Origin: the human T2T-CHM13v2.0 reference genome, Homo sapiens
Reading direction: 5' to 3' (one strand)
Assembly (NCBI RefSeq): GCF_009914755.1
Contig: NC_060926.1
Length of the DNA stretch: 64,000 nucleotides
This document shows, in pieces, positions 39,383-39,717 of the stretch. Position numbers and translations under genes: made by a program. Numbering within the stretch: the first letter of the stretch is position 1; every line of letters begins with the position of its first letter. The notes under the pieces are model-generated. The model worked only from the letters and a program-made list of their open reading frames with translations, was not told the origin of the DNA and ran no database searches.

Positions 39383-39454
39383 TTACATTATCTCAGCCCC
39401 CAGCCCACCCCTGCTGCAGTCGGCAAATCCGTGGCGCCCTCCCCTCGGTTCCAT
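39383..39454 (-). CDS. uORF3, 23 aa MEPRGGRHGFADCSRGGLGAEIM (translation unproven)
   Basis: ATG 39454 shares its A with the uORF2 stop (TGATG); ends ATG-TAA at 39388-39383. Confidence 0.35.
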   Translation of the reverse strand: MEPRGGRHGFADCSRGGLGAEIM

Positions 39455-39717
39455 CAAAGGTCCCTTCGGTCGAGGGGCAAGAGCCGAGAGAAGGGCAGGT
39501 CCGGGCGGGCGAGTGGCCTCGCCTTCTCCTCCTCTTCCTCCTCTGGGTCGCGGTCGCCCTCCTCCTCCGGCTCCGGGTCGGCCCGCGCCCGCAGCTGCTG
39601 CTGCGGCGGCGGAGGCGACTGCTGCTCGGCGTCCGGGTGTCTCCGGGGCGGGGGCTGCTCCGGCTCGTCCTCTGGCTGCTGCCCGCCGTCCGGCGCGGTC
39701 GCGACTCCGGCCTTCAT
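39454..39717 (-). CDS. uORF2, 87-aa acidic/Pro-rich candidate microprotein MKAGVATAPDGG...PLDRRDL (translation unproven)
   Basis: ATG 39717 with A at -3 (GGATC ATG A); open to TGA 39456-39454; the ATG-initiated part of track ORF 39454..39891. Confidence 0.5.
   Translation of the reverse strand: MKAGVATAPDGGQQPEDEPEQPPPRRHPDAEQQSPPPPQQQLRARADPEPEEEGDRDPEEEEEEKARPLARPDLPFSRLLPLDRRDL

What the first reader, a model, noticed from the sequence alone, without database searches (positions are those of the whole stretch)
39454..39717. 87-aa acidic, Pro/Gln-rich uORF2 is the best candidate unannotated microprotein
Seen: the best start context in the leader (A at -3). The sequence MKAGVATAPDGGQQPEDEPEQPPPRRHPDAEQQSPPPPQQQLRARADPEPEEEGDRDPEEEEEEKARPLARPDLPFSRLLPLDRRDL uses in-frame GAG/CAG/GAC runs rather than the Arg/Gly/Ala typical of spurious CpG-island ORFs, and ends in a compact hydrophobic/basic tail. 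Inference: a disordered protein with a C-terminal linear motif, which would make the mRNA bicistronic.
Basis: partly seen in the sequence, partly recalled or inferred. Interest (0 to 1): 0.7.

Follow-up and report, generated by a model that had tools for sequence, protein, structure and literature searches.

The report
Known translated uORF upstream of MARCHF4
This 87-codon reading frame in the long leader of the human MARCHF4 mRNA is real and already catalogued as a ribosome-occupied upstream ORF. Other mammals keep it intact, but nothing shows that its peptide is a constrained protein, so it most likely tunes MARCHF4 translation.

Summary
The ORF is as described: 39454-39717, minus strand, 87 codons, A at -3. 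Its length is not beyond chance. The stretch is open in all six frames, and dinucleotide shuffles give an ATG-ORF this long in 19-68% of trials.

It is not new. Sandmann 2023, supplement 2, lists it as GENCODE Ribo-seq ORF c2riboseqorf167. That name marks the replicated class. The table gives: MARCHF4 uORF, 'primatomorpha - young', 0 MS studies, PhyloCSF +12.74 in primates and -538.52 in mammals.

New here: 16 non-human protein clusters carry the same full-length ORF at 53-78% identity. One is named, from reindeer. All 16 share the start Met, 15 share the stop position, and all 17 gap blocks are in frame. Only one frameshifted and one N-terminally replaced relative turned up. The 'young' label therefore looks too narrow.

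Peptide-level constraint is not seen:
- 8 of 87 columns are invariant.
- Replacements are no more conservative than random (P 0.12-0.19).
- Net charge runs from 0 to -13.
- The flanks are equally conserved.
- No fold is predicted.

Readings: conserved cis-acting translated uORF 0.5; functional disordered microprotein 0.25; neutral by-product 0.2.

The parts
39454..39717 (-). uORF2, 87 codons plus stop. It equals GENCODE Ribo-seq ORF c2riboseqorf167 (hg38 chr2:216371336-216371599, minus).
   Evidence: sequence, context; identical peptide in Sandmann 2023 supplement 2; 16 full-length non-human relatives
39714..39785 (-). uORF1, 23 codons. Its TGA stop (39716-39714) overlaps the uORF2 ATG (39717-39715) as ATGA. 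It equals c2norep257, the non-replicated Ribo-seq ORF class.
39383..39454 (-). uORF3, 23 codons. Its ATG (39454-39452) shares one base with the uORF2 stop (TGATG). An internal ATG-TAA minimal ORF lies at 39388-39383 with A at -3.
40410..40448 (-). First upstream ATG of the leader, in weak context. Its 12-codon ORF is rich in Arg.
39115..39273 (-). uORF of 52 codons in weak context, lying between uORF2 and the main start.
   Evidence: its region is also recognisable in relative P0018
38902..38925 (-). Last upstream ATG, with a 7-codon ORF in weak context.
37863..38378 (-). MARCHF4 coding part of exon 1. The annotated start at 38378 has context gggcacATGc (C at -3, C at +4).
   Evidence: hub annotation
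39400..39850 (.). GC maximum of the CpG-island-like part of the leader (GC 0.74-0.77). Within uORF2, CpG observed/expected is about 0.95.
39522..39543 (.). Short triplet repeat (7 copies) that encodes the Glu run. A second one lies at 39720-39738, just upstream of the ATG.

Best explanation
uORF2 is a genuinely translated upstream ORF that is kept intact in other placental mammals and acts mainly in cis. Scanning 40S subunits pass a weak first AUG at 40448. They then reach uORF1 and, 68 nt further on, the uORF2 AUG (A at -3). That AUG can also be reached by ribosomes that have just finished uORF1, because the uORF1 stop overlaps it (ATGA). Ribosomes that translate 87 codons reinitiate poorly. 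They then face four more AUGs and about 1.07 kb before a main AUG in weak context. uORF2 therefore lowers and buffers MARCHF4 synthesis. Because its stop lies 1.59 kb upstream of the exon 1 splice donor, it may also expose the mRNA to nonsense-mediated decay. The peptide is a disordered, fast-evolving by-product. Shown: the ORF and its context, Ribo-seq catalogue membership, intact orthologous ORFs, and lack of detectable amino-acid constraint. Inferred: the effect on MARCHF4 translation, reinitiation from uORF1, and NMD.
For: Anatomy: there are 7 upstream ATGs in 2223 nt, uORF2 has A at -3, the main AUG has C at -3 and C at +4, and the overlaps are ATGA and TGATG. Translation: the ORF is listed as c2riboseqorf167, a uORF of MARCHF4, and 'riboseqorf' names were kept for ORFs called as replicated. 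ORF conservation: 16 non-human clusters match at 99-100% coverage and 53-78% identity. One is an annotated 87-aa protein of Rangifer tarandus platyrhynchus, order Artiodactyla. They fall into 12 groups at under 80% mutual identity. The Met is at the aligned column in 16 of 16 and the stop at the same column in 15 of 16. All 17 distinct gap blocks are in frame. A search with the human +1 frame found only 2 proteins among 148 candidates. A substitution-only neutral simulation gives P(ATG kept and no new stop) of 0.09-0.18 at the divergence that yields 64-74% identity. No peptide-level constraint: 8 of 87 columns are invariant. The 146 single-nucleotide replacements have mean BLOSUM62 -0.514 against -0.62 to -0.65 expected, P 0.12-0.19. 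Net charge runs from 0 to -13. Out-of-ORF flanks read in the same frame are as conserved as the ORF: 11 of 14 upstream in P0013 and 19 of 28 downstream in P0007, against 74% and 68% inside the ORF. Published PhyloCSF in mammals is -538.52 and the MS-study count is 0. No fold is predicted. Context from passages read: many uORFs keep their ORF structure without amino-acid constraint (1,335 of 2,915 uORFs have placental ORBLq above 0.9, while 74 of 2,915 have PhyloCSF above 10). Longer uORFs reinitiate less and are more likely to trigger NMD.
Against: Nothing here measures an effect on MARCHF4 translation. A purely cis-acting uORF does not need its frame. The two other frames stay open and end only 61 and 71 nt further on (at 39393 and 39383), so the near absence of frameshifted relatives is not predicted by this model unless the Arg-rich +1 product is harmful or the stop position matters. 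Primate PhyloCSF is positive at +12.74, the highest of the 45 rows read, of which only 2 are positive. The number of mammals whose ORF is broken by a stop or a lost ATG is unknown, because such ORFs would be too short to appear in the searches. The published analysis scored the ORF below its conservation cutoff, which is based on the median over aligned non-primate mammals. What share of MARCHF4 transcripts carry this part of the leader is unknown.
Confidence: 0.5

Rival explanations
1. uORF2 encodes a functional, intrinsically disordered microprotein of 83-96 residues that is conserved in placental mammals. Selection acts on the frame, the length and a few anchor residues rather than on the overall sequence, as in many disordered proteins with short linear motifs.
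For: The frame is kept in 16 of 18 related clusters, with 17 in-frame gap blocks including +8, +3 and -4 residues that are not simple triplet slippage. Start and stop positions are conserved. Two better-conserved blocks stand out, human residues about 14-30 and 66-87. Invariant residues are M1, D10, Q14, E20, A46, P58, A66 and R85. Primate PhyloCSF is +12.74, the top value of the 45 rows read. Ribo-seq detection was replicated. The peptide has five tryptic peptides of 9-23 residues, so it is in principle detectable.
Against: PhyloCSF in mammals is -538.52 and the MS-study count is 0. No occurrence turned up in the supplements that could be searched: 10 files of PMC12865046 and 12 of 27 files of PMC11909191. 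Replacements are not more conservative than random. Net charge is not conserved, at -11 in human, -2 in reindeer and 0 in P0008. The flanks are as conserved as the ORF. There is no domain, no fold, no paralogue and no deeper relative. Several gap blocks lie in Gln, Pro or Glu runs, where 3-nt slippage is favoured whether or not the sequence codes.
Confidence: 0.25
2. uORF2 is a chance ORF in a stop-poor CpG-island leader, and its translation is noise. Its apparent conservation reflects DNA-level constraint on the promoter-proximal leader, plus the fact that only intact ORFs enter a protein database.
For: All six frames are open, and shuffles give an ORF this long in 19-68% of trials. The flanks are equally conserved. 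The alternative frame is open for 181 codons in relative P0018. Relatives broken by a stop or a lost ATG could not have been seen, because the length windows were 47-153 and 45-200 residues. The published label is 'young' with negative mammalian PhyloCSF.
Against: Frameshifted relatives are visible in the database (P0012, P0018) yet are 2 of 18. With 17 in-frame gap blocks, a comparable or larger number of frame-breaking indels would be expected without selection (the expected share of 3n indels is my estimate, not a call). The start Met is kept in 16 of 16 clusters, although the gene caller can use other starts (P0013).
Confidence: 0.2
3. The ORF is seldom on the translated MARCHF4 mRNA in vivo, because most transcripts start downstream of it. 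On this reading the catalogue entry reflects cell lines with unusual promoter use.
For: The leader is unusually long (2223 nt) with 7 upstream ATGs before a weak main AUG, which makes efficient MARCHF4 translation from the full-length leader hard to picture. The GC-rich island spans about 39400-40600, which would be compatible with dispersed start sites. That last step is inference.
Against: RefSeq's selected transcript includes the ORF (hub annotation). The catalogue maps it to an annotated transcript and calls it replicated. No start-site data could be examined here.
Confidence: 0.05

Closest known systems
GENCODE / TransCODE Phase I Ribo-seq ORF c2riboseqorf167 (uORF of MARCHF4)
   Same: It is the same object. 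The peptide is identical, the strand is the same, and the hg38 span is 264 nt.
   Different: There is no difference in sequence. The published table calls it 'primatomorpha - young' with mode of origin 'unknown'. Here, full-length relatives were found outside primates, including reindeer.
Structure-conserved regulatory uORFs (high ORBL, low PhyloCSF) described by Deutsch et al. 2026, and classic regulatory uORFs such as those of ATF4
   Same: Translated, in a 5' leader, ORF kept intact across placental mammals, and no amino-acid-level constraint.
   Different: At 87 codons it is far longer than the ATF4-type short uORFs (a 4-codon example is named). No regulatory effect has been measured.
uORF-encoded proteins now annotated as coding (MIEF1 uORF/L0R8F8; c1riboseqorf55 in PTP4A2; c3riboseqorf98 in CGGBP1)
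   Same: An AUG-initiated uORF of microprotein size with Ribo-seq support.
   Different: Those were promoted on their evolutionary profile or peptide evidence, according to passages seen. This ORF has a strongly negative mammalian PhyloCSF and 0 MS studies in the table seen.

Membership tests
Translated uORF (GENCODE Ribo-seq ORF catalogue, Phase I criteria) | Lies wholly in the 5' UTR of an annotated coding transcript, upstream of the CDS and not overlapping it | tested here: met
   The ORF spans 39717-39454 and the CDS starts at 38378, both within exon 1 (37863-40601) (hub annotation).
Translated uORF (GENCODE Ribo-seq ORF catalogue, Phase I criteria) | AUG start and more than 16 codons | tested here: met
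   ATG start and 87 codons. The criteria were read.
Translated uORF (GENCODE Ribo-seq ORF catalogue, Phase I criteria) | Ribosome-profiling evidence of translation | tested here: met
   Looked up, not recomputed. It is listed as c2riboseqorf167, with a name of the replicated class. The source studies and tissues could not be seen.
Evolutionarily young, primate-restricted ORF | No intact homologous ORF in non-primate mammals | tested here: not met
   An 87-aa protein of Rangifer tarandus platyrhynchus matches at 66% identity, 100% coverage and E 1e-18 against 5.8 billion sequences. Fifteen further unnamed clusters also match.
Conserved functional microprotein / conserved-peptide uORF | Purifying selection on the amino-acid sequence | tested here: not met
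   Published PhyloCSF in mammals is -538.52. Eight of 87 columns are invariant. The replacement test gives P 0.12-0.19. The flanks are equally conserved. dN/dS itself could not be computed, because no orthologous DNA was available.
Conserved functional microprotein / conserved-peptide uORF | Reading frame kept across species (indels in multiples of three) | tested here: met
   Sixteen of 18 related clusters are in frame and all 17 gap blocks are in frame. Caveat: ORFs broken by stops would not be seen.
Conserved functional microprotein / conserved-peptide uORF | Peptide detected by mass spectrometry or in HLA peptidomes | tested here: inconclusive
   The 2023 table gives 0 MS studies. No occurrence was found in the supplements searched.
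Cis-regulatory uORF | Its translation changes the translation or stability of the main-ORF mRNA | not testable with these tools
   This needs reporter or endogenous mutation of the uORF2 ATG.

The most novel reading that the evidence does not exclude
The peptide is a real microprotein conserved across placental mammals and encoded upstream of MARCHF4. A median-based conservation score mislabelled it as primate-young. Selection keeps its frame, its length, a conserved N-terminal block (residues about 14-30), a C-terminal tail and an invariant Arg three residues from the C-terminus, while the acidic middle drifts.
Probability: 0.22. Interest if true: 0.55.

Novelty: already known. Interest (0 to 1): 0.3.

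Why it matters
MARCHF4 encodes a membrane RING-CH ubiquitin ligase (hub annotation). Its mRNA has an unusually long leader with many AUGs. A conserved, translated 87-codon uORF in that leader is a plausible handle on how much ligase is made. More generally, the case shows that an ORF filed as 'young' by a median score over whole-genome alignments can still have full-length counterparts outside primates. That matters when catalogued Ribo-seq ORFs are sorted into de novo and conserved classes. The ORF itself is already catalogued, and nothing here shows a functional protein.

Tried and rejected
- Protein families: Pfam found nothing for uORF1-4 at E up to 1.
- RNA families: Rfam found no match at E up to 0.1 in 37000-41500.
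- RNA structure of the ORF: z-score -0.02 against 200 shuffles, so there is no special fold beyond GC content.
- Paralogues in the human genome: only the ORF itself was found, as DNA and as protein (1 match of 23 candidates).
- Deeper relatives or fused forms: the profile search of 1.84 billion representatives gave 4 proteins, all already in the set. The 'longer' and 'shorter' options of the word-indexed search were not run.
- Fold search: not run, because the model has pTM 0.15 and no secondary structure.
- Tandem repeats as the whole explanation: only two short triplet runs were found.
- A KDEL-type retrieval signal or an acidic dileucine motif in the tail: judged against patterns recalled from memory, the last residues do not fit. 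No tool test was made.
- Literature: no paper in the library holds MARCHF4 or MARCH4 together with uORF, none of the 15 papers listed holds MARCH4 or MARCHF4, and none holds any of four peptide strings.
- Sources that could not be read: Mudge 2022, Duffy 2022 and Chen 2020 are not held. The supplement of PMC13010147 is too large to read. The brain microprotein atlas PMC13577902 does not name the gene in its main text.

Full report
OBSERVATION. The minus strand of window 39454-39717 holds an ATG...TGA ORF of 87 codons. It lies in the 2223-nt leader of MARCHF4 exon 1.

The leader has seven upstream ATGs:
- 40448: 12 codons, weak context.
- 39785: uORF1, 23 codons.
- 39717: uORF2, context aggatcATGa.
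- 39454: uORF3, 23 codons.
- 39388: a one-codon ORF, also with A at -3.
- 39273: 52 codons.
- 38925: 7 codons.

The annotated main ATG at 38378 has C at -3 and C at +4. Three ORFs are chained. The uORF1 stop overlaps the uORF2 start (ATGA), and the uORF2 stop shares a base with the uORF3 start (TGATG).

IS IT MORE THAN CHANCE? No, as far as length goes.
- The ORF sits at the GC maximum of the leader, 0.74-0.77. Its own GC is 0.746 and its CpG observed/expected ratio is about 0.95.
- Window 39383-39957 is open in all six frames, for 106, 166 and 167 codons on the minus strand and 147, 167 and 180 on the plus strand.
- In 1000 dinucleotide-preserving shuffles each, an ATG-ORF of at least 87 codons arose in 19%, 55% and 68% of trials, for the 575-nt, 1219-nt and 2223-nt segments.
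- The other two frames of the same strand read Arg/Ser-rich and Ala/Gly/Arg-rich. The acidic, Pro/Gln-rich reading is therefore one frame of three, not a mark of coding.
- Only two short triplet runs are present.

ALREADY KNOWN. Supplementary file 2 of Sandmann et al. 2023 (PMC10032668) lists this exact peptide (I saw the rows and read methods sections of that paper). The row reads: Ribo-seq ORF c2riboseqorf167, gene MARCHF4, biotype uORF, hg38 chr2:216371336-216371599 minus, 'primatomorpha - young', mode of evolution 'unknown', number of MS studies 0, PhyloCSF primates 12.74, PhyloCSF mammals -538.52.

uORF1 is listed as c2norep257. Passages of the v45 catalogue paper (PMC13010147) say that 'riboseqorf' names belong to ORFs called as replicated and 'norep' to those not replicated. 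They also say that Phase I drew on 7 studies and 139 samples.

Of the 45 rows in the part of the table I read, 2 have a positive primate PhyloCSF, and this ORF has the highest. No paper in the library holds MARCHF4 or MARCH4 together with uORF in its main text.

RELATIVES OUTSIDE HUMAN. This part is new here.
- A search of 5.8 billion predicted proteins with the human peptide gave 12 hits among 26 candidates. Eleven are full-length (83-114 aa, 60-78% identity). One, P0012, matches over 28% of the query.
- A profile search gave 16 proteins, all at 99-100% coverage, 53-78% identity by BLASTP and 61-78% in alignment A2.
- One cluster carries a name: an 87-aa 'unnamed protein product' of Rangifer tarandus platyrhynchus, a ruminant. 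The others are unnamed and I did not try to place them.
- At under 80% mutual identity they form 12 groups.
- All 16 have Met at the human start column. This includes P0013, whose predicted start lies 16 codons upstream.
- Fifteen of 16 end at the human stop column. P0007 has lost the stop and runs on for 29 residues.
- The alignment has 17 distinct gap blocks of 1-8 residues, all necessarily in frame.
- No hit above 78% identity was returned, so close primates could not be compared.
- The exhaustive profile search of 1.84 billion representatives found 4 proteins, all from this set. The human genome holds one copy. The family is therefore this orthologous set only.

IS THE FRAME REALLY KEPT, OR ARE ONLY INTACT ORFS SEEN?
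- Frameshifted forms are visible in the database. P0012 follows the human peptide for 24 residues, 22 of them identical, and then reads the human +1 frame.
- As a control I searched with the human +1 frame. Only P0012 and P0018 came back, among 148 candidates.
- P0018 (181 aa) begins with 21 residues unrelated to the human leader. It then follows the human +1 frame through the rest of the uORF2 span with two one-residue gaps. It switches human frame near 39360-39390, which is outside uORF2.
- So 16 of 18 related clusters keep the frame.
- ORFs cut short by a new stop or a lost ATG would fall outside the length windows and could not be seen. The share of mammals with a broken ORF is therefore unknown.
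- A substitution-only simulation gives P(ATG kept and no new stop) of 0.09-0.18 per lineage at the divergence that yields 64-74% identity.
- The published score is the median BLASTp E-value over aligned non-primate mammals, with a cutoff of 8. That this ORF fell below the cutoff means many aligned species match poorly, either through real loss or through patchy alignment of a GC-rich exon. I cannot tell which.

IS THE PEPTIDE CONSTRAINED? I see no sign of it.
- Eight of 87 columns are invariant.
- There are 146 distinct replacements reachable by one nucleotide from the human codon, and 26 more need at least two. The 146 have mean BLOSUM62 -0.514, against -0.62 to -0.65 expected for random non-synonymous neighbours (P 0.12-0.19).
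- Net charge runs from -13 to 0, with human at -11 and reindeer at -2. For this count P0013 and P0007 were trimmed of their extensions.
- Sequence just outside the ORF, read in the same frame, is as conserved as the ORF: 11 of 14 upstream in P0013 and 19 of 28 downstream in P0007. This control is small, 42 codons from two relatives, and those flanks are themselves uORF1 and uORF3 in other frames.
- AlphaFold2 on the 17-row alignment gives pLDDT 63, pTM 0.15 and no real secondary structure.
- There is no Pfam match.
- The last 30 residues have Kyte-Doolittle mean -1.25. That is more hydrophilic than the -0.53 reported for MANE isoforms in PMC12863090.
- No orthologous DNA was available, so dN/dS was not computed.

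MECHANISM. The best reading is a conserved, translated uORF that acts in cis.
- It takes scanning ribosomes at an AUG with A at -3. It may also take ribosomes terminating on uORF1 at the ATGA overlap.
- After 87 codons few ribosomes resume scanning. Four more AUGs and about 1.07 kb then precede a weak main AUG.
- Its stop lies 1.59 kb upstream of the exon 1 donor, so NMD is possible. That is inference. The inverse relation of uORF length to reinitiation, and the link of longer ORFs to NMD, were read.
- One fact fits this model poorly. The other frames end only 61 and 71 nt further on, so a frameshift would barely change uORF length, yet frameshifted relatives are rare.
- Either the +1 product is selected against (27 Lys+Arg including a run of basic residues), or the stop position matters, or the peptide itself matters. 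The last is the microprotein rival, which I put at 0.25. A neutral by-product gets 0.2.

COMPARISON AND NOVELTY. The object is the catalogued ORF c2riboseqorf167, so its novelty class is 'already known'. It behaves like the many uORFs that keep their ORF structure across placental mammals without amino-acid constraint, as described by Deutsch et al. 2026 (passages seen). It fails the test for a primate-restricted ORF, because of the reindeer relative. It also fails the test for an amino-acid-constrained microprotein.

WHAT COULD NOT BE SEEN. These sources bear directly on the peptide and tissue evidence and on how many mammals keep the ORF:
- The per-ORF peptide tiers and ORBL scores (supplements of PMC13275300, closed).
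- The v45 catalogue table (too large).
- The Phase I source studies (Mudge 2022, not held).
- The human brain Ribo-seq (Duffy 2022, not held).
- Chen 2020 (not held).
- Fifteen of the 27 supplementary files of PMC11909191.

Noticed in passing
window 39383-39785 (-): Three consecutive upstream ORFs are chained by overlapping stop and start codons: ATGA at 39717-39714 and TGATG at 39456-39452. In relative P0007 a single change removes both the uORF2 stop and the uORF3 ATG (the residue pair reads C-W there).
   Followed up: partly
window 38376-38378 (-): The annotated MARCHF4 start codon is in a weak context (C at -3, C at +4). It lies behind a 2223-nt leader with seven upstream ATGs.
   Followed up: no
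window 40410-40448 (-): The first upstream ATG opens a 12-codon ORF made almost wholly of Arg.
   Followed up: no
window 39457-39465 (-), residue 85 of uORF2: An Arg three residues from the C-terminus is invariant in all 17 aligned rows. From memory only, Arg at that position has been described as a C-terminal degron. If that holds, the peptide would be short-lived, which would fit the lack of MS evidence. This was not tested.
   Followed up: no
window 40069-40644 (+): A 191-codon ATG-ORF lies on the opposite strand, across the 5' end of the leader and the promoter. It is Arg/Gly-rich and is most likely another chance ORF of the GC-rich island.
   Followed up: no
window about 38733-38768 (-): A direct repeat of about 16 bases, in two copies a few bases apart, lies in the AT-richer part of the leader (seen).
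   Followed up: no
P0018 (protein), residues 1-21: The first 21 residues of this relative match nothing in the human leader. The match to the human +1 frame begins at about uORF2 codon 20. This could be an insertion, an alternative 5' exon or an assembly join in that record.
   Followed up: partly
Sandmann 2023 supplement 2, rows around c2riboseqorf167: The published label 'primatomorpha - young' conflicts with a full-length 87-aa relative in a ruminant. Median-based conservation scores may under-call conservation at GC-rich first exons.
   Followed up: partly
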